DNA of 64,000 bases from Candidatus Krumholzibacteriales bacterium (GTDB lineage Bacteria > Krumholzibacteriota > Krumholzibacteriia > Krumholzibacteriales > WJIX01): positions 59,367 through 123,366 of the forward strand of contig JAWODM010000014.1 in the NCBI GenBank assembly GCA_046483305.1, given 5' to 3'. The translations under genes and the position numbers were made by a program. Of the stretch, positions 4,596 through 48,892 are shown in pieces. Position 1 is the first letter of the stretch. Each line of letters opens with the position of its first letter. The notes beneath the pieces are model-generated. The model did no database searches. It worked only from the letters and a program-made list of their open reading frames with translations, and was not told the DNA's origin.

Positions 4596-5003
4596 GTGAC
4601 CGTATTCACCCATTTTTCTGCCGGGGCCCTGCTTGGCTATTTCTCTCCCGGGTTAGCTTTCGCCGCTTTCCTGGGGCTGTTGAGTCATCTGCTGCTCGAT
4701 TATCTGCCGCATTACGACTTTGAGAATGTATGGCTGGAAATATTATTGGGCTGCGCCGTTCTGGGCTTTCTTATAGCGGGCAGGAGCTGCACCGCTAATA
4801 TCTGTATGGGAGGACTGGTGGCGGTGCTGCCGGATGTGGAGAATCTGCTCTGGAAACTGGGAGCGATCAGGCGGGAGAGGCGGATATTTCCATCTCACAC
4901 CGGCCTGATACCCCACGGAAGGGAGGCCGGAAGACTCAATCTGGCGGCACAGGTTGTTTTCTCTGCCACTGTTGTTGGTTTCCTGCTTTGGAGTAATAAA
5001 TGA
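4596..5003 (+). CDS. YdjM-like membrane-bound metal-dependent hydrolase family protein
   Basis: Small polytopic membrane protein with FTHFSAG and SHLLLDYLPH motifs resembling the YdjM/DUF457 family. Its stop overlaps the next gene's start (ATGA at 5000-5003). Confidence 0.45.
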   Translation: MTVFTHFSAGALLGYFSPGLAFAAFLGLLSHLLLDYLPHYDFENVWLEILLGCAVLGFLIAGRSCTANICMGGLVAVLPDVENLLWKLGAIRRERRIFPSHTGLIPHGREAGRLNLAAQVVFSATVVGFLLWSNK

Positions 5004-8914: not shown

Positions 8915-9008
8915 TATCCTGAATCTTTCCGGGGAGCGGAATGTTTACTGCTTGACCGGGTAAGGTAACAATTATTATTTTAAGGTGGTATCAAAGAGAG
9001 GAAATGAT

Positions 9009-10033: not shown

Positions 10034-13000
10034 TTGCGCTTAATTCGATATAGATGGTTATCTGCTGCGTTGCTACTGGTATCGTTAATCTTTCCGCGAA
10101 CCGGAAGCGCTTCGGACAAACTGCCGGTTCTGGAAAAACTCCCCTCGGGGAACCTGATCATAACGGGCCGCTACACGGCTGGCCGCCGGGAGAACTATCC
10201 GCGAAGAAGAAGGTTTAATTACGACCGGCCGTCCATGAGGGAATTCAAAAGGAGGGATGCCAGGCCTCCCCTTCGGTCTTCCGCGGAAGTATCCGGAACC
10301 CGGCACGTAGCCCTGATAAGAATAGGATTCAATACTGACCGGAAAGACGGCCTTTCCAGCCTGGATATAAATGCCGGCGAGGGTGGGTTTATCCTGGAGC
10401 CGGATCAAGACTGGATTATAGATCCCCCTCCGCATGACAGAGACTACTTTAACGCACATATGACCTGCCTGAGAAACTATTATCATGCTCAGTCCTGCGG
10501 CAGGCTCGATATTACCTGGGAAATATTCCCCGCCGCCGACAACAGCTGCTACAAGCTCTCCGACCTCGCCGATTACGGGCCCGGAAGCGGGATGTGGACA
10601 ACCGGCCAGCTGGTTGATTTTGTTCACGCCTCTCTGGATGTAGCCGATCCGGATGTTGACTATACCCGGTTCGATGCAGTGATTATAGCTCACGCCGGTC
10701 CAAATCTTCAGAGCGACGTAAACAATGATACCCCCAATGATGTCCCGTCATTCTTCGCCCGGCTGGGAGATGAAGACCGGTTTGAAACCGGCGACGGATT
10801 AATAATTACCGATTGTTCGGTAATTCCGGAGACCGGTATTCAGGATGGTTACTACTCCGGCATTTCGGCTGTTCTGGCCCATGAATTCGGCCATCAGCTG
10901 GGCCTTCCGGACCTGTACGATATTACCAGCGGCGGAACCGGCATAGGGATCTGGGGCAATATGGGAAGCGGCGGCCAGCTGGGAGTATCTCTGGGAGGGG
11001 AGCGGATAGACGGGATTATTCCTGCCGGCCTCAGCGCCTGGTCCCGGTACTACCTGGGATGGGTCGAGGCGGATACCGTGGAATCTTTCAGAGAGGCCAT
11101 GGAGATTCCCGCCGTGGAGAAGGTTCCGGCTGAGATAATAAGGATAGATATATCCAATGACGAATACTTTCTTATAGAGAACAGGTGCGTGGAGATTGAT
11201 CAGTATCTGACTCTCCTGATAGCCGACCAGGAAACCGGTGTGGTGCTGGGTGTCTACAACTGCAAAAACTGCACGGAAGAGAACATTTACGACGATGGAT
11301 TCATTTATGATCTTGAACTCTCCACCGAATATGACTGTCTTCTGCCGGTGGACCCGGATCTTCCCGCGGGGCCGTTTGACATTAAGCCTGATTTCGGGCC
11401 TGGCCTGCTGATATGGCACATAGACGAGAGGCTGATTGCGTCCAGGTGGGAGGATAACACGCTCAACAGCCGAGAACCATTCTCGATAAGGCTTATGGAA
11501 GCCGGGGGGGTTCTGGATATAGGCGATCCCACTTCGCCGCTCAGCTACGGCAATTACGATGACGCTTATTACCAGGGCAACAGCAATAGCTTTTCAGATG
11601 TGACCATACCCGGCGCGTGGAGTAATATGGGAGTCCCTTCGGGGGTGACGGTGGAGAATATCTCGGCCAGGGATACTGTGATGACTTTCGACGGAGGAAG
11701 AAGGGCGGTTCTTGAAGCGGGGAATATATTCGCCGATACGCTCCCTGCTGCCGAATGCCTGTTACCGGTGGGGAGCCAGCCCGGAATGCTGGCGGTTGAT
11801 CATCAGGGAAACGGCTGGCTGGACGGGATGCCATTCCCGGTTTTCAGCATTGGCTCTTCCCCGCTGCTTCCTTCTGCTTACGGGCCGGGTTTCGCGCTTG
11901 GCGGGGATGCGGTAATTATAGGAGATGCGGAAGGGTATATTCACGCGATTTCTATCTCAGACTGGTCTGAGGCTGGCGGGAACTGGCCGGTTGCCACCTC
12001 CGGATTGAGCGCATACCCGGTGGTTATGGAAATGGAAACAGGAATGGCGGTGGCGGCTGCGGATGAGGAGGGCAGAATTTCCGTGTTGAACAGCTCGGGC
12101 GTGGAAGAATATTCGTTTCAGCTGCCGTCAGGACAGGTAAACGCGGCTAACATTTCGGCTGTGGTCGATTCTGCGGGGCTTACCGGCCGGCTGATCTTCT
12201 TATCGGCGGGGGACAATTCGGTATACCTGTGGTGGTGGAATTTCATCCTCGGAGAGTCCGAATCCGTGAGACTTCCGGTTTCAGCTGATGAAGTATCGGG
12301 CGCCGCTGCACTGGCTGCCGGCGATATCCTGCCCGGGAAAACGGGTTTGGAGGTATATCTGACCGCTCTGCGGGCGGGAAAGATCTATCTCTGCTCCGCT
12401 GACGGGGTAATATTCGAGAGAGATCTCGGCCAGGGGGTCCAGCCCCCCGCGGTGGTGGATATCAACGGAGATACCGTTCTGGATATAGTAGTTACCGACG
12501 GAGAGTCCATATATGCCATCTCAGCTTCGGGGGCCAATCTTACCGGCTGGCCCAGGAAGATTAACGGCATGCATAATTTCCGGCGCAGGCAGAAGATAGC
12601 CGTTCCGGTTTCCGCTGTCGGAAGCGGAGGCGGGGCCAGGGTGATTGCCGTTTCGACGGACGGAATTATATTTACTCTGGATCACCGGGGGGAGCTGCTG
12701 GGCGGCGGCTATCCTGAAAGGATAGCCGGATCGGTAAGACAGGCGCCGCTATTTGTCGATATGGGCGGAGAAGGCGCTTTCGGTTTTATCGATGTCCTGG
12801 AGAACGGGACCGGAGAATATTACCAGAACAGGCCTGAGGCAATCAGAGTCAAATGGAGATCCGGGCCTTTCCGGCCGGATGAGATAGCGACTTCCTGGTT
12901 CGGCTCAAGCGCTGATGCAATGCGAAGATCGTTTGCGACTGGAGTGGGTAGATGGAGCAGCCCCTCGGCGAATTGGGCCGCCATGGACGATAACCTGATA

Positions 13001-13258
13001 ATTTATCCGAACCCGGTTGAGGGGGGAAGGGCCGGTTTTCAGTTCAGGGCTCCTTCCGGATCTCACGCTTCTCTGATGGTATTCAATATTTCCGGAGAGA
13101 TCGTGCTCCAGAGGGAAAAGAGGTGTGAGGGAGGAGAGGAACATGAAATACCGGTACAGCTGTCCGGCACCGGTTCCGGGGTTTACATCGCCCGCCTGGT
13201 GATTACCTCCGGAGGAAGAAGCTTCAAGACACTTAAGAAATTTGCTGTAGTAAATTAA
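10034..13258 (+). CDS. M6/immune-inhibitor-A-like zinc metalloprotease with FG-GAP repeats and T9SS C-terminal domain
   Basis: Signal peptide. HExxH zinc site VLAHEFGHQLGLPDLYD (HEFGH at 10880-10894). Downstream FG-GAP/VCBS-like repeats (VVDINGDTVLDIVVTDGES). C-terminus IIYPNPVEGG...MVFNISGEIV...GVYIARLV fits a T9SS sorting domain. Confidence 0.7.
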   Translation: MRLIRYRWLSAALLLVSLIFPRTGSASDKLPVLEKLPSGNLIITGRYTAGRRENYPRRRRFNYDRPSMREFKRRDARPPLRSSAEVSGTRHVALIRIGFNTDRKDGLSSLDINAGEGGFILEPDQDWIIDPPPHDRDYFNAHMTCLRNYYHAQSCGRLDITWEIFPAADNSCYKLSDLADYGPGSGMWTTGQLVDFVHASLDVADPDVDYTRFDAVIIAHAGPNLQSDVNNDTPNDVPSFFARLGDEDRFETGDGLIITDCSVIPETGIQDGYYSGISAVLAHEFGHQLGLPDLYDITSGGTGIGIWGNMGSGGQLGVSLGGERIDGIIPAGLSAWSRYYLGWVEADTVESFREAMEIPAVEKVPAEIIRIDISNDEYFLIENRCVEIDQYLTLLIADQETGVVLGVYNCKNCTEENIYDDGFIYDLELSTEYDCLLPVDPDLPAGPFDIKPDFGPGLLIWHIDERLIASRWEDNTLNSREPFSIRLMEAGGVLDIGDPTSPLSYGNYDDAYYQGNSNSFSDVTIPGAWSNMGVPSGVTVENISARDTVMTFDGGRRAVLEAGNIFADTLPAAECLLPVGSQPGMLAVDHQGNGWLDGMPFPVFSIGSSPLLPSAYGPGFALGGDAVIIGDAEGYIHAISISDWSEAGGNWPVATSGLSAYPVVMEMETGMAVAAADEEGRISVLNSSGVEEYSFQLPSGQVNAANISAVVDSAGLTGRLIFLSAGDNSVYLWWWNFILGESESVRLPVSADEVSGAAALAAGDILPGKTGLEVYLTALRAGKIYLCSADGVIFERDLGQGVQPPAVVDINGDTVLDIVVTDGESIYAISASGANLTGWPRKINGMHNFRRRQKIAVPVSAVGSGGGARVIAVSTDGIIFTLDHRGELLGGGYPERIAGSVRQAPLFVDMGGEGAFGFIDVLENGTGEYYQNRPEAIRVKWRSGPFRPDEIATSWFGSSADAMRRSFATGVGRWSSPSANWAAMDDNLIIYPNPVEGGRAGFQFRAPSGSHASLMVFNISGEIVLQREKRCEGGEEHEIPVQLSGTGSGVYIARLVITSGGRSFKTLKKFAVVN

Positions 13259-13268: not shown

Positions 13269-14264
13269 ATGTCAAGAGCAGGAAAGCGCATCACGGCGGC
13301 AGCGGTTCTGATACTGTTTCAGGCGGCCGGAAATTTCTCGGAGGCAGAAGGCAGCGGCCTTCTGACGGCTCCTTCCAGTCTGAAACTTTCCCATTCCGAA
13401 AGAATCGAAAGCAGAAGGAACGAAAGACTGGTCTCAATATTCGATCAGAACAGAGATTTCAGAATCGCCTCCGGCGGCAGCTCGGAGGAGGCCCTTCGCC
13501 TCAACGGGGAAAGGATTCTTTCTCCCGGTATGGTGGCACCTGACAGGGATTCCGGGCCATACACCGCTGCCGGCAGGAGAAAAAGGAATATGGCGATATC
13601 GATTATCGGCTCGGCCCTGCTTCCCGGGCTGGGCGAGATGTATATGTATTCCAGAACCGGAGAAAAATCGATCCTTGGCCGGGCTCTGGGGTTTATCGCG
13701 TTCGAAGCGTACCTGTGGTACGGATATTTGCACAATCACGACAGGGGCAAGGATTTCAAGCGTCAGTACGAAGAATACGGCGACGCTCACTGGAGCCAGG
13801 AAAGGTTCCTTCAGAACCATCCGATCTGTTATACTACCTTTCAGGGGGGGTGCGACAGCTGGCAGCAGTACAATGAGATAGGTTCAGATGATCACTCTTC
13901 AGAATATTTCTATTTCTTCTATACCGCCAAAGAGGTGGACAGGGAGGAATATTACGAGAATATGGGCAAATACGATGCCTTCCTCTACGGCTGGGACGAC
14001 TGGAACGGGGAGTACCTGCACGAGGGGGGAGAGCCCAACTACTGGACCCCTCATAGAACGTATTACTGGGACCTTCGGGGAGAGAGTAATAAATACCTGC
14101 TCAGGGCGGATTACCATGTAATGGGAATGATCGCGGCCAGGGTTGTTTCGATGGTCCAGGCCGGATGGATAGCCCACAACCGGGGGTCAGCGCCGGAGGA
14201 ATGGTCTCTGGAGATAGACAAATCACCCCTGGATTACAGATGCAGCATTAACTACAGGTTTTAG
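13269..14264 (+). CDS. hypothetical secreted protein, LPGLGE-motif family, paralog A
   Basis: Signal peptide. Central IIGSALLPGLGEMYMY...GRALGFIAFEAYLWYGY segment and a Y/E/W-rich region, ending INYRF. Shares architecture and motifs with the next gene. Confidence 0.5.
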   Translation: MSRAGKRITAAAVLILFQAAGNFSEAEGSGLLTAPSSLKLSHSERIESRRNERLVSIFDQNRDFRIASGGSSEEALRLNGERILSPGMVAPDRDSGPYTAAGRRKRNMAISIIGSALLPGLGEMYMYSRTGEKSILGRALGFIAFEAYLWYGYLHNHDRGKDFKRQYEEYGDAHWSQERFLQNHPICYTTFQGGCDSWQQYNEIGSDDHSSEYFYFFYTAKEVDREEYYENMGKYDAFLYGWDDWNGEYLHEGGEPNYWTPHRTYYWDLRGESNKYLLRADYHVMGMIAARVVSMVQAGWIAHNRGSAPEEWSLEIDKSPLDYRCSINYRF

Positions 14265-14278: not shown

Positions 14279-15154
14279 TTGCGTAAAATATTTGTTTTCA
14301 TAACAGTGATTTTCCTGCCGGTAAACCTGTTTTCCTCATCTCTTTCCATGGACCCGGCGCCGGTCCCTGAACCGGAACAGAAAAGGTCGGTTTTCAGAAG
14401 TTCATATTCGATAGGCGGTTCCGGCTCAGGTGGCATCAGGCTCTCTCTGGCCGGCAGGGAAGGGATCAAATTACAGCTCCTGAGCGCCAGGCGGGGCTAT
14501 GGCTTTGACGGCACCTTTGAACCCGGCAGCCGTGATTATTCCACAGGAGGGATTATAGCCCGCAATGTGCTTCTGCCCGGACTGGGCCAGCGGAAGATGG
14601 GACAGAGAATGCGCTCCCGGATATATTTTTTCCTGGAAGGAGCCGCCTGGGTGGGACTGGGCACGTTCTTCTGGCAGAAAATGGCCAGGACCGGCGCGTA
14701 CGAGGAGTACGCGGTGGCCTACGCCGGTGTGGAAGAAAAAGGGCTTTCAGAGGATTACTATGAGACCATCGGCAATTTCATGAGCAGCGACGGCCCGGGC
14801 GGGTATAACGAATATGTTATGAGAGAAGCCAGGGACCTTTACTACCCCGACCAGGAGGCCATACAGGACTATTATGAGGCCAATGCTCTGACTGGCGACC
14901 AGTCCTGGAGATGGCTTTCCGAGAGTACCTATGACAAATATAATTCACTCCGCAAGGGAGCAAACAGCTCCGAGAGAAGGGCGGTTTATTCCCTGTTCTT
15001 TATGCTGGGATTGAGGCTGATCAGCAACATCGATGCGGTCAGGTCTATTATGACCGATGAAGGAGATCAGGAGCAGGCCGGACAGGGCGGGGCAGCCATA
15101 GATATTCATCAGAACGGGGAAGGTATTTCCGTCGTTCTGAAACGGCCCTTCTGA
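14279..15154 (+). CDS. hypothetical secreted protein, LPGLGQ-motif family, paralog B
   Basis: Signal peptide. IIARNVLLPGLGQRKMG...LEGAAWVGLGTFFWQ segment, DYYE/YYP-rich region and C-terminal Phe. Paralogous to 13269-14264. Confidence 0.5.
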   Translation: MRKIFVFITVIFLPVNLFSSSLSMDPAPVPEPEQKRSVFRSSYSIGGSGSGGIRLSLAGREGIKLQLLSARRGYGFDGTFEPGSRDYSTGGIIARNVLLPGLGQRKMGQRMRSRIYFFLEGAAWVGLGTFFWQKMARTGAYEEYAVAYAGVEEKGLSEDYYETIGNFMSSDGPGGYNEYVMREARDLYYPDQEAIQDYYEANALTGDQSWRWLSESTYDKYNSLRKGANSSERRAVYSLFFMLGLRLISNIDAVRSIMTDEGDQEQAGQGGAAIDIHQNGEGISVVLKRPF

Positions 15155-15210: not shown

Positions 15211-16122
15211 ATGCGGAAATTACACCGGTTGATTCTATTGTTAATTTTTGTTCCGGCGGCGGTTCATGCCGCCGTGCAGGAGGAAGAGCCTGCTGCCGGG
15301 GATTATCCGAATATAGTGGAAGCTGATTCGGTTCTTGCCGGGCTGAAGGAACCGCTGGGAATCTCCGCCGGGGCCCGCGGCGGGATATATGTGGCCGACG
15401 GGATGAGCGGCAAACTTTTCAAATATATGGCCGGCCGGGAAGTTCTCGAATTTCCGGTGCCCCGGTCGCTTGTTTCGATATATCCGGTTGATGTGGCGGC
15501 CGGAGCGGACCCCTTTATATATGTACTGGATTACTCCTCCGGGAATGTACTAAGATACGACTACAGGGGAGGATATCTGGATGTACTTATATCGTTCGAT
15601 GATTTCAAGCCCTCTTCAATATCGGCGGGAGCGGGAGGGAGCTTTATTCTGACAGATATGGAGAATCATTCGGTCCTGGTACTCAATCCCCTCCTGGACA
15701 GAGAGGTGGAGATAGAGGGTTACGGCTGGGAAGCGGGCTTTTTCAATAAACCGGCGAAAGCTGTAATACTGCGGGACGGGAGGCTGGCGGTTGCCGATAC
15801 CGGCAACCGGAGAGTGCAGATATTTTCGTCCTCGGGCCTCTATCTGAGGCAGTTATCCCCGCCGGACAGCCTTGGCTTCAAATCTCCAAGGTCGCTCTGC
15901 TGCGGCCCGGAGGGAAATATATTCGTTGCCGATACCGGGAGGGGTTCGGTTTTTGCCTACTCGCCCGGAGGGGAATATATCACCGCGATAGATTCCTATT
16001 CGGGAAAGAAAATATCGCCTTCCGCCCTCACTGTCGATCTGAATGATAACCTTTTCGTTGCCGATCTGCTTTCCAGGTCGATTCTCATATACAGGCTTGT
16101 TTATCCGGACAATGAGCGATGA
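15211..16122 (+). CDS. NHL-repeat beta-propeller protein, secreted
   Basis: Signal peptide. Repeated VADTGNRRVQIFSSSG and VADTGRGSVFAYSPGGEY segments typical of NHL repeats. Confidence 0.65.
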   Translation: MRKLHRLILLLIFVPAAVHAAVQEEEPAAGDYPNIVEADSVLAGLKEPLGISAGARGGIYVADGMSGKLFKYMAGREVLEFPVPRSLVSIYPVDVAAGADPFIYVLDYSSGNVLRYDYRGGYLDVLISFDDFKPSSISAGAGGSFILTDMENHSVLVLNPLLDREVEIEGYGWEAGFFNKPAKAVILRDGRLAVADTGNRRVQIFSSSGLYLRQLSPPDSLGFKSPRSLCCGPEGNIFVADTGRGSVFAYSPGGEYITAIDSYSGKKISPSALTVDLNDNLFVADLLSRSILIYRLVYPDNER

Positions 16123-19100
16123 AGCGTTACTCCCTTTCTATTATTATCATGGTTGTATTCACCCTCGCGCCTCTGCGGGCAAATCCGCTCGCGGAGCCGG
16201 GAAGAGGTCCGGTTTCGAGTAAGTCTTTTATCCTTTCGCCGGGCCAGAGCCGTATCGATACCGGCATATCTTTCATAAAACCGGGTTCCGATTCCCTTAT
16301 CATTGACGGCAGGGAAATCGAAAGGGGTGCCGGATACCGGATCAGTTCCCTCAGCGGGGTGATTATCCTGAACAACCCCGCTGAAGGCGGAGAGATGGCG
16401 ATCCTGTATTACAGCAGGTTCCATTTCCCCTTTCCCCCAGTGATGGCGAGAAGGTTCCCCGGAACCGGGGAGGCGCCTTTCAGAACTCCCCTCGCGGATA
16501 CTGCGGCGCTGTTCAGCAGTAAGAAAATTAATCCCTACCGCCTCAACGTTTCGGCCAGCAAATCGGTGGGATTCTCGGTAGGTTCCGCGAGAGGGGTGGG
16601 GATAGATCAGAGCCTGAGAGTGACCATTGCTGGAAAACTTGCCGAAGACCTGGAGGTCAAGGCGTTCCTTTCCGATGACGACCTGCCGGTACAGCCGGAA
16701 GGGAACACCGAGGAGCTCAAACGCCTGGACCGGATATCCATAAATATCAGGAGCAGGCATACCGAAGTAAAGCTCGCCGATTTTGCCTCCTCCCTGGACT
16801 GGTCCGTCTTTTCTTCCTTCGACAGGGAGCTCAGGGGAGGGGAGATTACGGTAAAAGCGGCCGGTCAGCGTTTCATGACAGGCGGAGGCATAGCCAAGGG
16901 CAGGTTTGAAACTATCAACATCACGGGGCGCGAAGGCGTTCAGGGCCCCTACCAGCTTCTGTCCGCCCGGAGGTTCAACGGAGTAATAGTGATTCCGGGT
17001 TCAGAGTCTGTATACCTGAATGGCAAATTAATGAAGAGAGGCCAGGAGAACGATTATGTCATAGATTACAACAGGGCGTCGGTTGCCTTTACCGAGAGAG
17101 TGCCGGTAACCGACGATTCGGAAATCGTAATAGAATTCCAGAAGGGCGAGAGCAATTACGAGCGGAATACCTTCATGGGGGGATGGTCCGCCCCCCTCCG
17201 GGAAGGCGCTGTCAATATCAGGGCCTTCTTCCTGACCGAGAGCGATGATAAGGACTCCCCTCTGGCCGGAGAGTTTACCGACGAGGAGATTTCAGCCCTG
17301 GCGGCGGCGGGAGACAACCCTGACAGCGCCTTTGCGTCCGGGGTGGAGAAGACAGATGAAGGGGGCAGCGGCTACATCTATTCGGAGGCGGATTCATATT
17401 TCGTGTTTGTAGAATCAGGCGCTGAATACCAGCTGGATTTCTACAAAGCCGCAGGCGGGGGGGATTATGATACCGACGGGTTTTCTTCCAGCGGAGAGCT
17501 GAAGTACCGTTACGTTGGCGAGGGAGAAGGGGATTACAGAATAGGCAGGCGGCTCCCCCTTCCTGAAAGGAAGGATCTGGTGGCGGTATCCGCCGATGCC
17601 GGGTCCGATCATCTCTTTCTGAGGGCGGAAGGAGATTTCAGCAGGCATGACAGGAATACCCTGTCCGGGCTCGATGACGGCGACAACAACGGGGCCGCCT
17701 ATACAGTGGAGGGGGGCCTGAGAGGGTTCGATTTTCTGGAATCAACCCTCAATCTGAAAGGAAGTTACTCATCGCTGGAGAGCTCGTTTGCCGCTCCCGA
17801 CCGGGTCCGCAGGGCCTATTTCTACAGGAACTGGAACCTGGAGGGAGTAGAGCTTGAAGGAAGGGAGAATATATCGGGCCTGAAGCTGAACTGGGAAAGG
17901 GACCGGTGGTGGAAGCTGGAAGGGAGCTACAGCAGGTTGACCCGAACCGGTGGGACCTCTGCGGGACGGGGGCGGGCTGAGGGAGAACTGGGGAATCCGG
18001 AAAACAGGGGGTTAAGGTTCCAGTGGCTGAGAACGGAGAACTCCGACCGGAGAAAACGGGAATTCGCTCTGGCGAAAGGGGTGTTTGCGATGTGGAAGCT
18101 GGTTCCGGGGATTACCCTGGACCGGGAGAGGTACCGGAGTTTCAGCCCCGCGGGGGCGGATACCGGAAGGTATTACAGGCAGGGAAAAATCTTTCTGGGA
18201 ACCCGGGATCTGAAAGGTTTCGATGCAGGTATCTCTTTCAACCGCAGGCTTACCGATAACCTGAGAGAGAGCGGCGGCGCGTGGTTCAGGGCCAGGGAGA
18301 ACGACGAGATTATTTTGAACGGTTCATACTCCGGTGGAACCAGGATGATAGATTTCTTTCTGAGCCACCGGGAGAGCGATGAGATAGAGTCTGGAAGCTC
18401 CAGCACCTTTGACCTGGCCAGGATCAAGTACCGGGATTCATACAGGCCGCTGGGGGTCGCTACCGACATCGGCTACAGGATCACTTCCGGCGAGGAGAGA
18501 AGAAGAGAAAGAGCTGTTATCTTCGTGGGAGAGAATCAGGGAGATTACGATGAAGAAGGCAACGAAGTGGGCCAGAAGAGGGGCGACTATATGCTTGTGT
18601 ACATCCCCGGAACGGGTACCGAAGGGGTCAGGACGGTTGAGCTGAACTGGAAGCTGAGCTTCGGGGATGGAATCAGGGGGTTCGGTTCAATGACGGATGA
18701 GGATGGCGGCCTGTTCAACCTGATAAAGAAGAATGTATCCCTGGACCAGATATTCTCTCTTTCCGAAAAATCAACCACCGATGAACTCTTCCGGCTCTAC
18801 ATCATGGATCCCGATCTTCTTCAGAGGGATGACGTGACGGTTGAAGGGTACAACCGGCTCAGGCAGGAATGGAACTTCCTCAGGGACGTCAGGAAGTACA
18901 ACCTCGGTTTTACCTTCTCCAGGGAGGACAGGGAGGATAACAGGACTGAAGGGGCTTCATCCAGCAGCTATCTCAGGGAGATGAGGCTTAAATCGGAGTA
19001 TTTGCCGGTTCCCTCACTGAGCATATCCCTGGAAGGAACCAGGACGGACAGAAGCAGTATTTCTGATAACAGGGCGGTACAGAGCTACGATATCCTCGCC

Positions 19101-19487
19101 TATACCCTCTCCAGCGCTCTCGGCTACAGGAGAGGGCCCAACGCCCGTTTCTCGGTGGAATTCTCCGGGCAGGACAGGGAGGATTACCTCTCAGAGTCCA
19201 GGCAGAATTCGTATTCATTCAAACCTTCAGCCAGCATCTCTCCGGCCGGGGATATAAACATAAGGACTTTCTACAAGTTTACCTACACAGATGTGAAGAA
19301 CGACGGGGGGCAGCCCCTGTTCTTCCTGGAGGAGGGGGTAAGGCAGGACTGGAACATCTTCAGCCGTTACCAGGTGGGAAAGCACATAAGCGTGGGACTT
19401 AACTATACCGGCAGAAGGGAAAAGGATTTCAGGGAGGAGGTGAAGACTGTCCATGCGCTCAAGGTTGAAAGCAGGGCTTATTTTTAG
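16119..19487 (+). CDS. large (1122 aa) hypothetical outer-membrane-type protein
   Basis: Cleavable signal peptide. Composition rich in alternating R/E/D/G/S/Y typical of beta-barrel proteins. C-terminal ESRAYF with terminal Phe. Start overlaps the upstream stop (ATGA). No family recognised by eye. Confidence 0.5.
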   Translation: MKRYSLSIIIMVVFTLAPLRANPLAEPGRGPVSSKSFILSPGQSRIDTGISFIKPGSDSLIIDGREIERGAGYRISSLSGVIILNNPAEGGEMAILYYSRFHFPFPPVMARRFPGTGEAPFRTPLADTAALFSSKKINPYRLNVSASKSVGFSVGSARGVGIDQSLRVTIAGKLAEDLEVKAFLSDDDLPVQPEGNTEELKRLDRISINIRSRHTEVKLADFASSLDWSVFSSFDRELRGGEITVKAAGQRFMTGGGIAKGRFETINITGREGVQGPYQLLSARRFNGVIVIPGSESVYLNGKLMKRGQENDYVIDYNRASVAFTERVPVTDDSEIVIEFQKGESNYERNTFMGGWSAPLREGAVNIRAFFLTESDDKDSPLAGEFTDEEISALAAAGDNPDSAFASGVEKTDEGGSGYIYSEADSYFVFVESGAEYQLDFYKAAGGGDYDTDGFSSSGELKYRYVGEGEGDYRIGRRLPLPERKDLVAVSADAGSDHLFLRAEGDFSRHDRNTLSGLDDGDNNGAAYTVEGGLRGFDFLESTLNLKGSYSSLESSFAAPDRVRRAYFYRNWNLEGVELEGRENISGLKLNWERDRWWKLEGSYSRLTRTGGTSAGRGRAEGELGNPENRGLRFQWLRTENSDRRKREFALAKGVFAMWKLVPGITLDRERYRSFSPAGADTGRYYRQGKIFLGTRDLKGFDAGISFNRRLTDNLRESGGAWFRARENDEIILNGSYSGGTRMIDFFLSHRESDEIESGSSSTFDLARIKYRDSYRPLGVATDIGYRITSGEERRRERAVIFVGENQGDYDEEGNEVGQKRGDYMLVYIPGTGTEGVRTVELNWKLSFGDGIRGFGSMTDEDGGLFNLIKKNVSLDQIFSLSEKSTTDELFRLYIMDPDLLQRDDVTVEGYNRLRQEWNFLRDVRKYNLGFTFSREDREDNRTEGASSSSYLREMRLKSEYLPVPSLSISLEGTRTDRSSISDNRAVQSYDILAYTLSSALGYRRGPNARFSVEFSGQDREDYLSESRQNSYSFKPSASISPAGDINIRTFYKFTYTDVKNDGGQPLFFLEEGVRQDWNIFSRYQVGKHISVGLNYTGRREKDFREEVKTVHALKVESRAYF

Positions 19488-21126
19488 TCTGATGCTGTTT
19501 GCGCCGTCAGTTCTGAATGCCGGGCGGGCGGCCAGGGTGGAATATGCCGGTATCGACCTTCTTGATACCGGAAAGCTGAAGGCGGATTCCTACCTGAAGG
19601 AAGGCGGGCGGTTTTCCGATTCGCTTCTTTCCATGGAATTGCAGAGGCTCGATTCGCTCTATTTCAATATAGGTTACCCCGGAGCGGTTATTGATGCCGA
19701 TACCGCCGCCAGTGGCGATCAGTACCTGATAACCATATCGGTAAGCGAAGGCGGGCAGGCCAGTTTCGGTAAAGTCGCTGTTGCGGGTGATAACCCTGTT
19801 GAGGAAAAGGGAGGGATTTACAGCCTGAAGCGGGGCGAAGATTTCCTCCCCGGGAGAGTGGAAGAGGCCATGAAATTTACCCTTTTCTCGATGAACAGGG
19901 CCGGATTCCCCTATGCCCAGGTATGGATCACCGGATTCGACTATATCCGGGCCGATAATTCGGTGGATATATCCTTTTCCGTAGTTACCGGCGAGCGGAT
20001 GACGGCCTCGGAGGTGGTATTCGAAGGGATTTCATCCACCGACACCTCCACCGCCATGATAGCTTCGGGTTTCAGGAAGGGCAGGGAGTATGACGAAAAG
20101 ATGCTGATCTCGGTCAGAAACCGCCTGGAGGCGAGCGGCCTTTTCGAAGAGGTTCTCCCCGGAAGGGTAATCCGCAGGAGCAAAGGGGAGGTTGCCCTGG
20201 TGTTTCCGGTCAGGGAACAGGAGAGAAGAAACCTCTTCCGGGGGGCTTTCGGATTCTCCCGGAAGCAGAACGATGAATACGAAGTTAACGGGAATGTGGA
20301 ACTTGAGCTTAATAATATAGCGGGGACGGGCAGGGGGGCTGAATTCACCTGGATAAACGACGGCAGGGATTATTCCAGGACAGAGGTGAGCTATCTGGAA
20401 CCGTTTCTTTTCTCCAGGAACCTGTCCCTGGAAACCTCCCTGAGGCAGATTGTCAGGGATTCCCTCTACAATATGAGCAGCGGGAGCCTGAGGTTCAGGG
20501 CGCCTTTCGGCCCGGCCGGATTCAGGCTGTCGGTTTCCGCCTCCGCTGACAGGATCGTAATCCAGAACGACGTCGATCTGAGCAGGAGTTTCAGGCAGAG
20601 ATACGGCCTGGGCCTTGAGAAGAGTAGCGGTTCATATCTGAGGTTCGAGACCTCGCTGGAGGGAGGGCTCAGGAACAGTTACTACAAATTCCGGGATGAC
20701 GAGTCTGTCTGGCAGCTGCTGTATAACATTGAGGCCACCTCTGAGATGCCGACTTTCCGGGGCCAGAGCGCTTATCTCAGGGTGGTATCCGAGGGGATAT
20801 TCAGCGGTGGAGAAATACACCCGGCGGAGCTGTTTTCGGTGGGGGGAGCGAGATCGATCAGAGGCTACCGGGAGAACCAGTTCAGGGCCGAGCGGGCGTC
20901 CTACCTCAATCTGGAATACCGGCTGGGAAGAACCAGCAGGGTATTCCTGTTCAACGATACGGGGGTTATTTACCGAGAGGATACCGGCTGGGAGTTCAGG
21001 AACGGCGCAGGATTCGGCATAAGGTCGGTATCAGCGGTAGGAATCATCGAGCTGAGCTTCGGAATGGCGGAGCGCTTCTCCCTGGACGCCGCCAGAATAC
21101 ATGTGTCGCTGGTGGAGAGTTTCTAG
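19453..21126 (+). CDS. Omp85-family (BamA/TamA-like) outer-membrane protein with POTRA domains
   Basis: Signal peptide. N-terminal POTRA-like repeats. C-terminal surface-antigen barrel with FSVGGARSIRGYRENQF motif and terminal VESF. Overlaps the upstream gene by 35 nt. Confidence 0.65.
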   Translation: MRSRLKAGLIFSLMLFAPSVLNAGRAARVEYAGIDLLDTGKLKADSYLKEGGRFSDSLLSMELQRLDSLYFNIGYPGAVIDADTAASGDQYLITISVSEGGQASFGKVAVAGDNPVEEKGGIYSLKRGEDFLPGRVEEAMKFTLFSMNRAGFPYAQVWITGFDYIRADNSVDISFSVVTGERMTASEVVFEGISSTDTSTAMIASGFRKGREYDEKMLISVRNRLEASGLFEEVLPGRVIRRSKGEVALVFPVREQERRNLFRGAFGFSRKQNDEYEVNGNVELELNNIAGTGRGAEFTWINDGRDYSRTEVSYLEPFLFSRNLSLETSLRQIVRDSLYNMSSGSLRFRAPFGPAGFRLSVSASADRIVIQNDVDLSRSFRQRYGLGLEKSSGSYLRFETSLEGGLRNSYYKFRDDESVWQLLYNIEATSEMPTFRGQSAYLRVVSEGIFSGGEIHPAELFSVGGARSIRGYRENQFRAERASYLNLEYRLGRTSRVFLFNDTGVIYREDTGWEFRNGAGFGIRSVSAVGIIELSFGMAERFSLDAARIHVSLVESF

Positions 21127-22313: not shown

Positions 22314-25300
22314 TCACCTCAATAGAACCATCTTCTTCGTTATCTTGACATCTTCGGTCACGAACCTGGCGAAGTAGATGCCTGTCGCGACCGCCGAGCC
22401 GTTGTCATTAGTCCCTTTCCACTGGAACTCGTGAATTCCGGGTTCCTTCATCCCCTTGAAGACCTTTTTGACCAGTCTTCCTTTCACATCGTAGATCTTC
22501 AGGGACACCTGCCGCTGATCTCCGGCCGGCAGTCCGAAACGGATAGTGGTGACAGGGTTGAACGGGTTCGGATAGTTCTGCCACAGCGTGAACTTTTCGG
22601 GTATCACGTTGTCGCTGTCGCCGACCGCTTCTCTGCCGTCGGCATCCATGGTGATGGTACCTGAAGCTGTGGCCATCCAGTCGAGTGCGCGGTCGAGGAT
22701 CTCCGCACGCCGCGTCTCTTCCTGGATGTAAGTGAAGTTGAAGGTGAAGTAGACCGAAACATGATTGGGACCGATGTACCTCACCGCTGCCGCTGAATCC
22801 GGCCCGGAGGGGGTCATCGGCCACAGTTTCGAATCCCACTCTTTACCTTCCTTGCTGTAGAAGGCGGACATTTCCTCCCTCGATTCGAACATGTCAAGAG
22901 ACGATCCTGTTCCGCTCCACTTGTAAATTACCTGGCCTCCCGAATAGGTGGTGGACAGTTTGACCTCGTCGGGATAGGAGCCCTGAATTGTAAAGGTCTC
23001 GCCGGCGCCTATGGGATCTCCAGGCGTGCTCGAGATCTGTCTCCAGCCCGGGTCGTCCTTGACGTACGCGGTTCCGGTGTACTGCTCCATCCAGGATCTG
23101 GCTGTGGATCCATAGGAGAGGTCTCTGCCGAGGAACCAGATCTTCTGACTTTCACCATCGGAGGCGCTCAGGAAAGCTCCCAGGGTGTCCATCTGGGTGG
23201 TGCTGAGATACCAGGACTCGTCCACTATGACTGCGTCATAGGAATGAAGTATGGCGGTCGCAGGAACTCCAAGTTCGTCCCAATCCCAGATATCCGCGGT
23301 CCGTCCAGCGGCGGTGAAGGCCTGCTGGAAGACTTCGGGAGCGGTATGACCGGCGCCTCCAAGCAGCACCAGGATATCGCCAGAAGGCATGATGCCGAAC
23401 TCATAGTAAGAAGCGGGAGCTCCGGCCGGATCGAACGACGTGTTCGCGCCGTCGTCCTCCGCCTCCAGATACAGTCTTATCCTGGTTCCGGAAGCCTGCC
23501 CGGGGATGTCGCCTGAATACTCGTCGGGATTACCGGTCGGCGACATGGCCACCGCATTCCAGGTGCCGCCCTCGTTGATGCTGTAATGCAGCTGCACCGA
23601 AGAAACTTCGCCCAGGGCGTCGATCACTTCCGTGGTAACAGTGTACGGGCCTGTAGTATCGAACGTTGAAGATGGCACCGTGGTCGACACAAAGTTGGGA
23701 CCTTCTGTGTCTTCGGCGCCCATTATGCTGACGTCATCGATATACCATCCGACCTTGTTGACCCACGAATCGCTTCCGAAATGGAACCTGATGATGACCT
23801 CCTGTCCCTTGTAGGGTGTAAGGTCGCAAGTCACCTGGTGCCAGTTATCATTGTTGTATCCGGTGAAGCACGGTTCGTTCGGTATGCCCGCGTTGTAGCT
23901 CTTGGCCGTTCCGTTATAACCGATATCCGGAGTGAGTATCGACCAGGTGCTTCCTCCGTCGGTGGAAATCTTTATGTTCCCTCCGTCGTAGTTGGTCTCG
24001 ATATAGTACCACTGCCAGAAGGTCAGCATAGCGTAGGAGCTGCCCGCTGGAACTATGACCTCGGGCGTCTCCAGCTTGGAGTTCGAGCTGGAAGAATAGG
24101 TGCCGCCGACCTGTGTCGCCCAGAGGTTGACCCCTGAATTAGCTCCGTCGGGTCCGGTGGTGGGTTCGCCCCATTCCCAGTCGCCTGTCGAGCTGAATCG
24201 GCCGTCAGTAGCTTCGAAATCCCAGGTGTAATAGTCCACGATCTCGAAGGAATGGTATCCGGATTCCGGTTCTCTTGCCGTATTGGGAACGGCCGCTGCA
24301 TCCCGAGCTCTTATATAGTAGTTGAACACATCGCCCAGAGCGGCCGGTCCGGGAATATCTCCCGTGTAGAGGTCTCCTCCGGCGTTTGTCATGGTGATGG
24401 TAGTGTTGGCGCCGCCGTTCTTGTTGTATGTGAGGAATACCCCGGCTGGATCGACACCCACATTGTCGGTCACAGTAGCCTCTACCGTGTAGGGGCCTGT
24501 CTCGTCCGGCGTATTGGGCAGTGGATAGTGGACTATCTCCGGAGGAGTTATATCCGCTGTCACCTCGAACGAATGCTGTACATCCGGCGCTCCCGACGGA
24601 TGGAAGCTGGTGTTTCCGTCGGTGTTGGTGGCGCTGATGTAGTAATGTACGGTAGTGCCGTAGGATTGCGGAGGTATATCCGCTGAGTATTCGTCCGGGT
24701 TGGCCGTGGGGTTCATCTGCAGGCTAACCGGTCCCGCACCGGCGTCGTAGATCAGGTTGATCCGGTTGGGGTCCAGATACTCGGAGTACACGTTGGCGGC
24801 TACGGTGTAGGTGCTCAAGGTGTCTTCGGTATCATGAAGCGGTTCGTGCAGGATCTCCGGGGCGGCGAACCACTTGAGTGTCCTGTCGATGATGCCCGCC
24901 CTTCTCCACGGTTCCTGGATGTAGTTGAAGTTGAAGGTGAAGTACACAGAACGATATTTATCGCCGTTGTACTTGATTCCGGCGGCCGCGTCTATGCTTT
25001 GCGGATCGTGCGGCATCACGCCGTCCCATTCCTTTCCGGCCTTCTGGTAGGTCCCGGCAATCTCCTCTCTGTCAAGGTACGTACCTTCTCCGGTGTACTG
25101 GTAGACAAGCACGCCGCCCGGATAGGCCTCGCTGCGTTGAGTCTCGTCAGGATACGAACCGGAGATTACGAAGGTCTCATTGGCTCCGATCGGTTCGCCG
25201 GGCGCTCCGGTGAGTTCGCGGTATCCGGGATTGTCCTGGACGTAGGCCGCCCGCATGTACTGTTCTATCCAGGGCCTGGTCGAGGAGTAGAATCCCAGAT

Positions 25301-48884: not shown

Positions 48885-48892
48885 TCAGGGAG

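What the first reader, a model, noticed from the sequence alone, without database searches (positions are those of the whole stretch)
16119..21126. 1122-aa outer-membrane-type protein overlapping a downstream POTRA/Omp85 barrel gene
The large protein has a cleavable signal peptide, barrel-like amino-acid alternation and a terminal ...RAYF. Its 3' end overlaps by 35 nt the start of a TamA/BamA-like protein, which has 2-3 POTRA repeats and the GGARSIRGY barrel motif. The order, large substrate-like protein followed by an Omp85 protein, resembles two-partner or TAM-like pairings. However, the large protein has neither a TPS domain nor a TamB-like signal-anchor. This may be a dedicated assembly pair for a new surface protein.
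Basis: partly seen in the sequence, partly recalled or inferred. Interest (0 to 1): 0.65.

Follow-up and report, generated by a model that had tools for sequence, protein, structure and literature searches.

The report
Giant outer-membrane barrel with dedicated BamA-like partner
A Krumholzibacteria genome encodes a very large, unnamed outer-membrane barrel protein directly followed by its own short BamA-like assembly protein, inside a type IX secretion (PorU/PorV) operon; the barrel belongs to a widespread family that no database describes, and its function is still unknown.

Summary
ORFs 16119-19487 (1122 aa) and 19453-21126 (557 aa) overlap by 35 nt. Both have signal peptides, and the RAYF terminus and GGARSIRGY motif are present.

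The large protein is not a TpsA-like passenger or a TamB. AlphaFold (pLDDT 83.6) predicts an integral giant beta-barrel of about 36-38 strands. It matches no Pfam, NCBIfam or PDB sequence family. SprA, the T9SS translocon, is the only solved barrel of comparable size.

The family has 5,011 cluster representatives, almost all 1,100-1,200 aa. Every named locus recovered comes from the FCB superphylum, apart from two MAG labels that look wrong, and includes cultured Flavobacteriia. It is annotated "hypothetical" everywhere.

The 557-aa protein has three POTRA domains and a 16-strand barrel. By sequence it is closer to BamA than to TamA or TpsB, but it fails the BamA and TamA equivalog cutoffs.

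The pair ends an eight-gene operon-like run: PorU, PorV, M6 protease, two unknowns, NHL propeller, barrel, Omp85. Outside Bacteroidota the Omp85 follows the barrel in 32 of 36 assessable loci. In the Bacteroidota, Ignavibacteria and Balneolales loci it never does (0 of 29).

Most likely this is a T9SS-linked giant barrel with a dedicated BamA-type insertase or partner. Function is inferred, not shown.

The parts
5000..8914 (+). PorU, the T9SS C-terminal-signal sortase (peptidase C25), with its own T9SS C-terminal domain. First gene of the run.
   Evidence: NCBIfam NF033707 543.5 bits (cutoff 420); Pfam Peptidase_C25 2e-70. Conserved upstream of the pair in 11 of 21 loci with at least 8 kb of upstream flank.
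8985..10007 (+). PorV/PorQ-family outer-membrane barrel (T9SS shuttle/anchor family). Ends in F.
   Evidence: NF033709 210 bits (cutoff 90); Pfam PorV 3.7e-22. The PorV equivalog scores 146 bits, below its cutoff of 250.
10034..13258 (+). M6-like metalloprotease with a T9SS type A C-terminal sorting domain (a T9SS cargo). HEFGH zinc motif intact at residue 283.
   Evidence: NF052323 233 bits (below cutoff 600), TIGR04183 27.4 bits (cutoff 23); HEFGH found.
13269..14264 (+). Unknown 331-aa secreted or membrane protein with an LLPGLGE motif followed by a hydrophobic segment. Ends in ...YRF. Conserved member of the cluster.
   Evidence: No Pfam or NCBIfam hit. Orthologues found in L001, L004, L009, L010, L012, L014 and L016-L021.
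14279..15154 (+). Unknown 291-aa protein, DUF5683-like (LLPGLGQ motif). Ends in ...RPF. Conserved member of the cluster.
   Evidence: The L004 orthologue hits PF18935 DUF5683 at 28.4 bits (cutoff 26.7). The motif is shared with the preceding gene. Synteny.
15211..16122 (+). NHL-repeat beta-propeller, 303 aa, Sec signal peptide, no lipobox, no T9SS C-terminal domain. Its stop overlaps the start of the large gene (ATGA).
   Evidence: Pfam NHL 1.1e-22; ATGA overlap. Upstream of the barrel gene in 26 of 37 assessable non-Bacteroidota loci.
16119..19487 (+). The 1122-aa giant outer-membrane beta-barrel protein (here called protein A). Member of an unannotated FCB-wide family.
   Evidence: No Pfam, NCBIfam or PDB sequence hit. 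AF2 pLDDT 83.6, pTM 0.74, about 38 long strands. Family of 5,011 cluster representatives.
16119..16181 (+). Signal peptide of protein A (residues 1-21, ...APLRA|NP; cleavage site read by eye).
   Evidence: Sequence; helix at 3-15 with low pLDDT in the model.
16215..16412 (+). Small N-terminal beta domain of protein A (residues 33-98), followed by a disordered linker (residues 103-136).
   Evidence: Secondary structure and pLDDT from AF2.
16542..19481 (+). Barrel region of protein A (residues 142-1121). It has 39 DSSP strand segments, which corresponds to about 36-38 transmembrane strands, interrupted by two inserted domains.
16659..16718 (+). The most conserved segment of the family: loop KAFLSDDDLPVQPEGNTEEL (residues 181-200). 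It has low pLDDT, so it is probably a flexible functional loop.
   Evidence: 3.6 bits per column against a mean of 2.27; D186, G195 and T197 are invariant; pLDDT below 50 at residues 189-202.
16899..17156 (+). Conserved inserted beta domain (residues 261-346; motifs EGVQGPY and RGxENDYxIDY). Weak, sub-threshold resemblance to DUF2460/TIGR02217.
   Evidence: Conservation. DUF2460 hits of 4.8e-5 and 5.4e-3 in relatives and TIGR02217 9e-5 in Nonlabens, all below their cutoffs.
17262..17567 (+). Second inserted domain (residues 382-483): one helix and short strands.
   Evidence: AF2 secondary structure.
19455..19484 (+). C-terminal beta-signal of protein A (ALKVESRAYF). A1120 and F1122 are invariant.
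19434..19441 (+). Shine-Dalgarno-like GAGGAGGT for the Omp85 gene, lying inside the end of gene A.
19453..19487 (+). The 35-nt overlap of gene A and the Omp85 gene (+1 frame). Suggests translational coupling.
19453..21126 (+). The 557-aa Omp85-superfamily protein (here called protein B), BamA-type, with three POTRA domains.
   Evidence: Pfam POTRA 3e-12. Family profile against PDB: BamA 4.5e-57, TamA 7e-22. AF2 pLDDT 84.1. Foldseek: TamA and BamA, TM 0.62-0.74.
19528..20217 (+). Three POTRA domains of protein B (residues 26-98, 104-178 and 184-255), each beta-alpha-alpha-beta-beta.
   Evidence: They align to POTRA3-5 of BamA (TIGR03303 positions 181-464; BamA residues 205-662).
20227..21117 (+). 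16-strand Omp85 barrel of protein B (residues 259-555). The protein ends in ...LVESF.
20842..20868 (+). Loop-6 motif GGARSIRGY (residues 464-472), the conserved (V/I)RG(Y/F) of Omp85 proteins.
   Evidence: G464, G465, R470 and G471 are invariant and Y472 nearly invariant in 50 family members.
22314..29678 (-). 2454-aa subtilase (S8) with MAM-like domains and a T9SS type A C-terminal domain. A T9SS cargo gene convergent with the run. It is absent at this position in the syntenic genome L001.
   Evidence: Pfam Peptidase_S8 1.2e-50; TIGR04183 33.7 bits. L001 goes straight from the Omp85 to thiC.

Best explanation
Gene A encodes a Sec-exported giant outer-membrane beta-barrel of about 36-38 strands, a size so far seen only in SprA, the T9SS translocon. 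Gene B encodes a short BamA-type Omp85 with three POTRA domains and a 16-strand barrel. Together with the upstream NHL beta-propeller they form a conserved three-gene module.

In Krumholzibacteriota and several sister phyla this module is the distal end of an operon that begins with the T9SS sortase PorU and the shuttle barrel PorV.

The proposed mechanism is as follows. All eight products are exported by Sec. The C-terminal beta-signal of A (...SRAYF) is captured by the POTRA domains and lateral seam of B, which folds and inserts this unusually large barrel by beta-augmentation, as BamA does. The NHL propeller may act as a periplasmic accessory, a role analogous to BamB. The tight gene overlaps (ATGA, then 35 nt) would keep the components in a fixed ratio. 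Once in the membrane, A works with PorU/PorV as a channel or platform in the export or surface attachment of cargo that carries a T9SS C-terminal domain, such as the neighbouring M6 protease and subtilase.

Shown here: gene structure, fold class, family size, conserved gene order and Omp85 subtype. Inferred: that B assembles A, as opposed to merely working beside it, and that A acts in type IX secretion or sorting.

For: Omp85 type: three POTRA domains, 16 strands and the loop-6 RGY motif. The family profile hits BamA at 4.5e-57 and TamA at 7e-22, with no TpsB among the 60 matches listed. Foldseek TM is 0.62-0.74 to TamA and BamA.

Linkage: B lies directly downstream of A in 32 of 36 assessable non-Bacteroidota loci. 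NHL is upstream in 26 of 37, PorV in 12 of 21 and PorU in 11 of 21, at identities down to about 25% and across at least six phyla. NCBI locus tags for A and B are adjacent in independent MAGs, namely KAV42_01785/01780 and KOO63_06870/06875.

Operon: intergenic gaps are 70, 26, 10, 14, 56, -4 and -35 nt, and all eight products have signal peptides. There is an SD site before B.

T9SS context: PorU scores above its equivalog cutoff. PorU, the M6 protease and the downstream subtilase all carry T9SS C-terminal domains.

The taxa named for family A match the FCB superphylum to which T9SS and SprA are restricted according to PMC12611786 and PMC11285876. One Bacteroidia MAG has the A homologue 2.5 kb from a PorU2-PorV2 pair that scores above cutoff.
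Against: There are no experimental data, and no detectable sequence homology between A and any characterised protein.

In KSB1, Zixibacteria and Calditrichota the module stands alone, without PorU/PorV nearby.

In about 40 Bacteroidota, Ignavibacteria and Balneolales loci the A homologue has neither the Omp85, nor NHL, nor T9SS neighbours (0 of 29, 0 of 39, 1 of 30). Its neighbours there are unrelated: an SBP_bac_5 protein, an OmpA-family protein and MacB/FtsX proteins. So A can evidently be assembled without B, and it need not be tied to T9SS.

Decades of T9SS genetics and interactomics in Bacteroidota have not reported such a protein; PorD, for example, is periplasmic.

The structural matches to SprA have low TM-scores (0.22-0.26) and may only reflect shared barrel size.

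I could not see the model coordinates, so the strand count and barrel closure are read from secondary structure alone.

I could not establish that a separate housekeeping BamA exists in this organism.
Confidence: 0.45

Rival explanations
1. The NHL-A-B module is a general outer-membrane biogenesis or transport machine unrelated to type IX secretion, for example a large channel for another substrate or a structural envelope protein. Its position behind PorU/PorV would then reflect only co-regulation of envelope genes. B would still be a dedicated insertase or partner of A.
For: The module occurs without PorU/PorV in KSB1, Zixibacteria and Calditrichota loci. Bacteroidota homologues of A sit among unrelated genes. 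Ignavibacteria keep the B orthologue next to ubiA and the mlaEFD genes, far from A. No T9SS screen has reported such a protein.
Against: The eight-gene order with PorU/PorV is kept across Krumholzibacteriota, Latescibacterota, Eisenbacteria and other MAGs at 26-50% identity. The taxa named for the family coincide with the T9SS-bearing FCB superphylum. PorU2/PorV2 or PorQ and a T9SS cargo lie near the A homologue in two Bacteroidota loci.
Confidence: 0.3
2. B is the organism's housekeeping BamA in a shortened three-POTRA form, and A is an accessory barrel subunit of the BAM complex, comparable to the extra barrel BamG in the Bacteroidota BAM complex. A would then not be a client of B.
For: The B family profile is closest to BamA. 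No second Omp85 gene occurs in the 64-kb window or in any fetched locus. FCB BAM complexes are known to contain additional barrel subunits (PMC12611786).
Against: B scores 93 bits on the BamA equivalog TIGR03303 (cutoff 297) and lacks the equivalents of POTRA1-2. It is not next to skp, lpxD or other usual bamA neighbours; a canonical example of that context is L087. Phyla that hold B orthologues (Ignavibacteria, Calditrichota) have a separately identified canonical BamA in cultured members, IALB_0497 and Calab_3667. No Bacteroidota-labelled protein appeared among the 98 hits of the word-indexed search with B, although Bacteroidota keep A.
Confidence: 0.1
3. This is the first reader's reading: a two-partner-secretion-like or TAM-like pair in which the 1122-aa protein is a secreted or surface-displayed substrate moved across the membrane by the Omp85.
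For: The gene order is large protein then Omp85. A Pfam ShlB hit of 25.5 bits (cutoff 22.7) on the C-terminal 90 residues of B led PGAP to name it 'ShlB/FhaC/HecB family'. B has the three-POTRA architecture of TamA.
Against: A has no TPS domain, no beta-helix and no DUF490 domain. It is predicted to be a membrane barrel with a beta-signal. TpsB proteins have two POTRA domains, whereas B has three. The B profile lists no FhaC or ShlB chain among the 60 PDB matches shown, and the TamA equivalog scores 34 bits against a cutoff of 625. No tamB gene is in any neighbourhood.
Confidence: 0.04

Closest known systems
SprA/Sov, the T9SS outer-membrane translocon (36-strand barrel; PDB 6H3I, 8GL6, 8GL8)
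   Different: SprA is about 2,400 aa, with more than 150 kDa of extracellular cap; A is 1,122 aa with short loops. There is no sequence similarity by Pfam, NCBIfam or a profile search of PDB sequences at E<=10. TM-scores are only 0.22-0.26. Bacteroidota, where SprA was characterised (PMC12611786), also carry A homologues, although I did not check both genes in one genome. If they co-occur, A is not the SprA orthologue.
BamA, the central Omp85 insertase of the BAM complex
   Same: B has POTRA domains, a 16-strand barrel, the loop-6 RGY motif and a C-terminal aromatic residue. The family profile aligns to BamA POTRA3-5 plus barrel at E 4.5e-57, and Foldseek TM reaches 0.74.
   Different: B has three POTRA domains, not five, and is 557 aa, not about 800. 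It scores 93 bits against a cutoff of 297 on TIGR03303. Its neighbours are the giant barrel and T9SS genes, not skp, lpxD or other BAM-associated genes.
TamA/TamB translocation and assembly module
   Same: A three-POTRA Omp85 of about 560 aa paired with a very large envelope protein of more than 1,000 aa. Foldseek TM to TamA is 0.62 in both directions.
   Different: The partner is a signal-peptide-bearing barrel, not an inner-membrane-anchored beta-taco with DUF490. The gene order is reversed. The TamA equivalog scores 34 bits against a cutoff of 625, and the sequence profile prefers BamA.
LptD/LptE, a large barrel that needs a partner inside or beside it
   Same: A large barrel with a periplasmic N-terminal beta domain, encoded with small partner proteins. 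A barrel this wide with short loops would need something to plug it.
PorU-PorV-PorQ-PorZ attachment complex of the T9SS, and the NCBIfam 'PorU2/PorV2/M6-like' putative type IX sorting system
   Same: The operon starts with PorU and a PorV/PorQ-family barrel followed by an M6-like protease with a T9SS C-terminal domain. A propeller protein (NHL) is present, as PorZ is a propeller protein. One Bacteroidia locus has a true PorU2-PorV2 pair next to an A homologue.
   Different: No PorZ or PorQ equivalog hit. The NHL protein has no C-terminal sorting domain. The window's PorU matches PorU (543 bits) and not PorU2 (176 bits, below its cutoff of 450). The M6 protein keeps HEFGH, so it is not the 'inactivated' form. 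A giant barrel and an Omp85 are not known parts of either system.

Membership tests
Omp85 superfamily (protein B) | N-terminal POTRA domain(s) | tested here: met
   Pfam POTRA 47.5 bits (cutoff 21.3), two stretches. The AF2 model shows three beta-alpha-alpha-beta-beta units at residues 26-98, 104-178 and 184-255.
Omp85 superfamily (protein B) | C-terminal 16-strand barrel with the conserved loop-6 (V/I)RG(Y/F) motif | tested here: met
   16 strands at residues 259-555. SIRGY lies within GGARSIRGY at 464-472; R470 and G471 are invariant and Y472 nearly invariant in 50 sequences. Foldseek TM is 0.62-0.74 to TamA and BamA. The Pfam Omp85 hit itself is 23.6 bits, just below its cutoff of 24.
BamA (housekeeping insertase) | Scores above the equivalog model cutoff (TIGR03303, 297 bits) | tested here: not met
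   93.4 bits, aligned only to model positions 181-464 of 741. PRK11067 scores 40 bits against a cutoff of 1181.
BamA (housekeeping insertase) | Five POTRA domains | tested here: not met
   Three POTRA domains. They correspond to POTRA3-5 of N. gonorrhoeae and E. coli BamA.
BamA (housekeeping insertase) | Single essential copy per genome, typically near skp, lpxD or similar genes | not testable with these tools
   The context here is the giant barrel plus T9SS genes. There is no second Omp85 in the window or loci, but the rest of the genome could not be read. My attempt through P0247 returned Rokubacteria BamA only.
TamA | Scores above the equivalog model cutoff (NF047950, 625 bits) | tested here: not met
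   34.4 bits, C-terminal 100 residues only.
TamA | Adjacent tamB (DUF490, AsmA-like) partner gene | tested here: not met
   No DUF490 or AsmA hit in the window genes or in the called genes of L001, L002, L004, L085 and L086.
TpsB (FhaC/ShlB two-partner secretion transporter) | Two POTRA domains and a ShlB-type barrel | tested here: inconclusive
   Pfam ShlB scores 25.5 bits (cutoff 22.7) on residues 432-524 only, the region common to all Omp85 barrels. However, B has three POTRA domains, and no FhaC, ShlB or CdiB chain is among the 60 profile matches listed or the top 50 Foldseek hits.
TpsB (FhaC/ShlB two-partner secretion transporter) | Partner TpsA with an N-terminal TPS domain (PF05860) | tested here: not met
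   The neighbouring 1122-aa protein has no Pfam hit at E<=0.01 and none of seven relatives has one at E<=1.
TamB/AsmA-like (protein A) | N-terminal signal anchor, DUF490 domain and open beta-taco fold | tested here: not met
   The signal peptide looks cleavable. There is no DUF490 hit.
SprA/Sov T9SS translocon (protein A) | Sequence membership (SprA models of Pfam and NCBIfam; which models those libraries hold is from memory, not from a tool output) | tested here: not met
   No family hit of any kind for A, for seven relatives or for the Nonlabens homologue. The A1 profile does not reach SprA in PDB sequences at E<=10.
SprA/Sov T9SS translocon (protein A) | 36-strand barrel with a large extracellular cap (about 2,400 aa) | tested here: inconclusive
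SprA/Sov T9SS translocon (protein A) | Physical association with PorV or Plug; required for secretion | not testable with these tools
   Only genomic linkage to a PorV-family gene is available: 12 of 21 assessable loci.
LptD (protein A) | OstA_N jellyroll plus LptD barrel models | tested here: not met

The most novel reading that the evidence does not exclude
Protein A is a compact, cap-less counterpart of SprA. It would be the outer-membrane channel of a PorU/PorV-dependent type IX export or sorting pathway in Krumholzibacteriota, Latescibacterota and allied FCB phyla, and possibly of the uncharacterised PorU2/PorV2 system in Bacteroidota. It would be built by its own BamA paralogue (B) and gated or plugged by the co-encoded NHL propeller.
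Probability: 0.13. Interest if true: 0.85.

Novelty: new variant of a known kind. Interest (0 to 1): 0.62.

Why it matters
Single-chain outer-membrane barrels of more than 30 strands are very rare, and SprA is the only one of about this size among the solved structures the model matched. Here is a second family of similar size. It has more than 5,000 sequence clusters, it is present in cultured Flavobacteriia, and no name, Pfam or NCBIfam model, or paper for it turned up in my searches.

In several little-studied phyla the family is genetically tied to the T9SS sortase and shuttle genes and to a private BamA-type insertase. If the link is functional, it would show how type IX secretion or sorting is organised outside Bacteroidota. 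It would also give a natural example of a substrate-dedicated BamA paralogue for a giant barrel.

Both ideas can be tested, because homologues of the barrel exist in cultivable bacteria. Even if the T9SS link turns out to be incidental, the family deserves a database model. RefSeq currently calls it 'hypothetical', and one Nonlabens record wrongly calls it a 'DUF2460 domain-containing protein'.

Tried and rejected
1. TPS and TAM readings. I looked for TPS and DUF490 domains and found none. Rejected.

2. SprA homology by sequence. Pfam, NCBIfam and an A1 profile search of PDB sequences at E<=10 all gave nothing. I could not obtain a SprA sequence to run a profile-profile comparison. The three ORFs longer than 1,500 aa in the fetched loci turned out to be a SprB-repeat adhesin, a PorU2 and a PKD-repeat protein.

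3. AFDB Foldseek search for named orthologues. The library was unavailable.

4. 'Sole BamA' test. My last homology search went on P0247, a canonical-context BamA that shared words with B. It proved to be from Rokubacteria/Methylomirabilota and says nothing about Krumholzibacteriota. Looking up clusters of the longer Omp85 hits gave no useful taxonomy. tblastn found no second Omp85 in any locus.

5. PorU2/PorV2 linkage in Bacteroidota. It is real in L073 but was found in no other of about 40 Bacteroidota loci, so I treat it as anecdotal.

6. Conserved neighbours of the Bacteroidota and Ignavibacteria homologues. These are SBP_bac_5, OmpA-family, coiled-coil, Exo_endo_phos, MacB/FtsX and ABC-F proteins, which are not informative.

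7. Known T9SS accessory proteins as candidates. PorD is periplasmic, and 'PorU2'/'PorV2' do not occur as gene names in the papers found.

8. Literature on T9SS in Krumholzibacteriota or Latescibacteria, and on SprA-like proteins. Nothing relevant.

9. The weak DUF2460/TIGR02217 (phage distal tail protein) hits. They cover about 50 residues, fall below all cutoffs and lie in an inserted domain. I regard them as chance or a shared small beta motif, not a phage relationship.

Full report
OBSERVATION. They overlap by 35 nt, with B in the +1 frame. A GAGGAGGT Shine-Dalgarno-like site lies 11 nt before B's ATG. That ATG yields a normal signal peptide, so the overlap is genuine. A has a signal peptide and ends in ...ESRAYF. 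B contains GGARSIRGY at residues 464-472. A has no TPS domain and no DUF490 domain; it has no Pfam or NCBIfam hit at all.

WHAT PROTEIN A IS. A search of 5.8 billion proteins returned over 200 homologues of 1,110-1,190 aa, all called 'hypothetical' and none with a Pfam domain. The window itself comes from a Candidatus Krumholzibacteriales MAG, where A is MFO7914384.1, 'hypothetical protein'. An exhaustive profile search found 5,011 cluster representatives at E<=1e-3 and 2,365 at E<=1e-30. The best 150 were nearly all 1,080-1,240 aa and matched end to end.

The 80 loci kept were named Krumholzibacteriota, Latescibacterota, Calditrichota, Zixibacteria, Eisenbacteria, Ignavibacteria, Balneolales, Chloroherpetonaceae and many Bacteroidota, including cultured Nonlabens tegetincola. 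Two labels fall outside the FCB superphylum (Patescibacteria for L005, Alphaproteobacteria for L063), and both look like binning or labelling errors. The Bacteroidota homologues are also about 1,135-1,160 aa and unannotated.

AlphaFold2 on a 44-sequence alignment gave a confident model (pLDDT 83.6, pTM 0.74). It has a small N-terminal beta domain (residues 33-98) and a disordered linker. From residue 142 to 1121 there are 39 long strand segments, interrupted by two inserted domains at 261-346 and 382-483. Across the family, 33 of 38 strands show an alternating hydrophobic/polar pattern, against 14.5 +/- 2.8 when residues are shuffled within strands. The C-terminal A-x-F is invariant.

So A is a giant outer-membrane barrel of roughly SprA's strand number, with short loops and no detectable sequence relationship to any described family. 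I could not see the coordinates, so the strand count (about 36-38) and barrel closure are inferred from secondary structure. The best-conserved part is residues 141-340, especially the loop LSDDDLPVQPEGNTEEL at 181-200 and the inserted domain at 261-346.

WHAT PROTEIN B IS. The AF2 model (pLDDT 84.1) shows three POTRA domains and a 16-strand barrel, with the RGY motif in loop 6. The family profile (50 sequences) matches BamA at E 4.5e-57, covering POTRA3-5 plus the barrel. It matches TamA only at 7e-22, and no TpsB chain is among the 60 matches listed. Foldseek gives TamA at TM 0.62 and BamA at up to 0.74.

B fails the BamA equivalog model (93 bits against 297) and the TamA equivalog model (34 against 625). 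PGAP's name for it, 'ShlB/FhaC/HecB family', rests on a 25.5-bit Pfam hit to the C-terminal 90 residues. B is therefore a short BamA-type Omp85 with TamA-like architecture and belongs to none of the three named subfamilies. Its orthologues (545-600 aa) occur in Krumholzibacteriota, Calditrichota and Ignavibacteria.

CONTEXT. The pair is the end of a tight run of eight genes on one strand, with gaps of 70, 26, 10, 14, 56, -4 and -35 nt. Every product has a signal peptide. The genes are:
- PorU sortase (NF033707, 543 bits, above cutoff)
- a PorV/PorQ-family barrel
- an M6-like metalloprotease with a T9SS C-terminal domain
- two unknown proteins sharing an LLPGLG(Q/E) motif, one of them DUF5683-like
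- an NHL beta-propeller
- A
- B

A 2,454-aa subtilase with a T9SS C-terminal domain lies convergently downstream. The same eight-gene order occurs in a complete Krumholzibacteriota genome whose A homologue is 50% identical, and in loci whose A homologues are only 26-33% identical.

I counted linkage across the 84 loci.

| Neighbour of A | L001-L039 plus L058, L063, L070, L083 (mostly non-Bacteroidota FCB) | Remaining loci (mostly Bacteroidota, Ignavibacteria, Balneolales) |
|---|---|---|
| B directly downstream | 32 of 36 assessable | 0 of 29 |
| NHL upstream | 26 of 37 | 0 of 39 |
| PorV family upstream | 12 of 21 | 1 of 30 |
| PorU upstream | 11 of 21 | 0 of 30 |

KSB1, Zixibacteria and Calditrichota keep NHL-A-B or A-B without PorU/PorV. 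Ignavibacteria keep a B orthologue elsewhere in the genome. It is identified as an orthologue by the shared ubiA neighbour also seen in L004. One Bacteroidia MAG has its A homologue 2.5 kb from a PorU2-PorV2 pair that scores above cutoff, but that was the only such case.

MECHANISM. The best-supported reading is that NHL, A and B are one functional module. A is a giant barrel. B is a BamA-type insertase or partner dedicated to it, recognising A's C-terminal beta-signal and templating its folding at the lateral seam as BamA does (mechanism as reviewed in PMC12611786). NHL may be a periplasmic accessory. The module works with PorU/PorV in export or attachment of cargo that carries the T9SS C-terminal domain. 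The gene structure, folds, family size and linkage are shown. The assembly role of B and the T9SS role of A are inferred. Overall confidence is about 0.45.

The main rival (0.3) keeps the module but drops the T9SS role. Its support is the free-standing modules and the unlinked Bacteroidota homologues. A further rival (0.1) makes B the housekeeping BamA and A a BAM subunit. Against this are B's sub-cutoff score, its three POTRA domains, its unusual context, and the published canonical BamA genes in cultured Ignavibacterium and Caldithrix. I could not search the rest of this genome, so it remains open. The two-partner-secretion and TAM reading is essentially excluded (0.04).

COMPARISON WITH KNOWN SYSTEMS. 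A works most like SprA/Sov in size, membrane location and company, but it fails every sequence test for membership and is half the length. Bacteroidota, where SprA was characterised, also carry A homologues, so A is unlikely to be simply the SprA orthologue; I did not check both genes in one genome. B works like BamA or TamA but fails both equivalog tests. The operon resembles the T9SS attachment module (PorU/PorV), but with an unprecedented barrel, Omp85 and propeller in place of PorQ and PorZ.

NOVELTY. Seven literature searches found no description of this family, of a T9SS-linked Omp85, or of T9SS in Krumholzibacteriota. The known accessory protein PorD is periplasmic. I rate it a new variant of a known kind: a giant outer-membrane barrel plus a dedicated Omp85. 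Interest is 0.62. A specialist would be surprised that a family this large and this unusual is unnamed, and the T9SS link makes a clear, testable prediction, but no function has been demonstrated.

The most novel reading not excluded is that A is a compact SprA-like channel for PorU/PorV-dependent export. I put its probability at about 0.13 and its interest, if true, at 0.85.

LIMITS. The AFDB library was unavailable. No SprA sequence could be obtained for a profile-profile test. The whole-genome content of relatives (canonical BamA, SprA, GldKLMN) could not be examined.

Noticed in passing
window 22314-29678 (-): A 2,454-aa subtilase (S8) with InhA-like MAM domains, carboxypeptidase-regulatory domains and a T9SS type A C-terminal domain. 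It sits, together with a GEVED-domain gene (29734-30504, -), between the Omp85 and thiC. In the syntenic complete genome L001 the Omp85 is followed directly by thiC and hutU, so this looks like an inserted cargo block.
   Followed up: partly
window 10034-13258 (+): The M6-like protein's best match is the NCBIfam 'T9SS-dependent M6-like inactivated metalloprotease' (233 bits, below its cutoff of 600). It nevertheless retains an intact HEFGH zinc motif at residue 283, so here it is probably an active protease.
   Followed up: partly
window 13269-14264 and 14279-15154 (+): Two adjacent unknown proteins share an LLPGLG(Q/E) motif followed by a hydrophobic stretch, and both end in an aromatic F, like outer-membrane proteins. 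The second is DUF5683-like. Both are conserved members of the PorU...Omp85 cluster in at least 10 loci.
   Followed up: partly
L073 963-13084 (Bacteroidia MAG JAGYKL010000011.1): PorU2 (NF052324, 738 bits) and PorV2 (NF052325, 494 bits) both score above cutoff. They are divergently oriented 2.5 kb from the homologue of the giant barrel. This was the only Bacteroidota locus of about 40 with that arrangement.
   Followed up: yes
L080 1563-2618 and 13309-16884 (Saprospiraceae MAG): A PorQ scoring above cutoff (352 bits) lies about 7 kb upstream of the barrel homologue, and a 1,191-aa protein with a T9SS C-terminal domain lies immediately downstream.
   Followed up: no
protein A residues 289-339 (window about 16983-17135) and homologues: There are recurrent sub-threshold hits to DUF2460/TIGR02217 (phage distal tail protein) in an inserted beta domain. 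They have caused one RefSeq record (WP_167342858.1, Nonlabens) to be named 'DUF2460 domain-containing protein', which is probably a misannotation.
   Followed up: partly
L005 (DATKWS010000134.1) and L063 (CAZHAK010000016.1): These contigs carry the NHL-barrel-Omp85 module at 52% and about 29% identity, but are labelled 'Patescibacteria group bacterium' and 'uncultured Alphaproteobacteria bacterium'. These are probably binning or labelling errors, since all other carriers are FCB lineages.
   Followed up: no
L012, L019, L021 versus L001, L005-L008: MAGs all labelled Krumholzibacteriota carry the full eight-gene cluster at two very different divergence levels from the window, 47-52% and 26-29% identity for the barrel. 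This is either deep divergence within the phylum or two paralogous clusters. It is not resolved.
   Followed up: no
window 43100-50278 (+): A type IV pilus and regulation block: PilB-like and PilT-like ATPases, a PilC-like platform protein, a PilS-like histidine kinase and a sigma-54 response regulator.
   Followed up: no
window 22273-22304: A strong 12-bp, GC-rich hairpin lies between the end of the + strand run and the convergent subtilase gene. It is likely a bidirectional terminator.
   Followed up: no
L085 and L086 (Ignavibacteria complete or near-complete genomes): The orthologue of the short Omp85 lies in a conserved block: GWxTD-domain protein, PfkB, Omp85, UbiA, RNase HII, then MlaE/F/D. 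The UbiA neighbour is shared with L004, where the giant barrel is still adjacent.
   Followed up: partly
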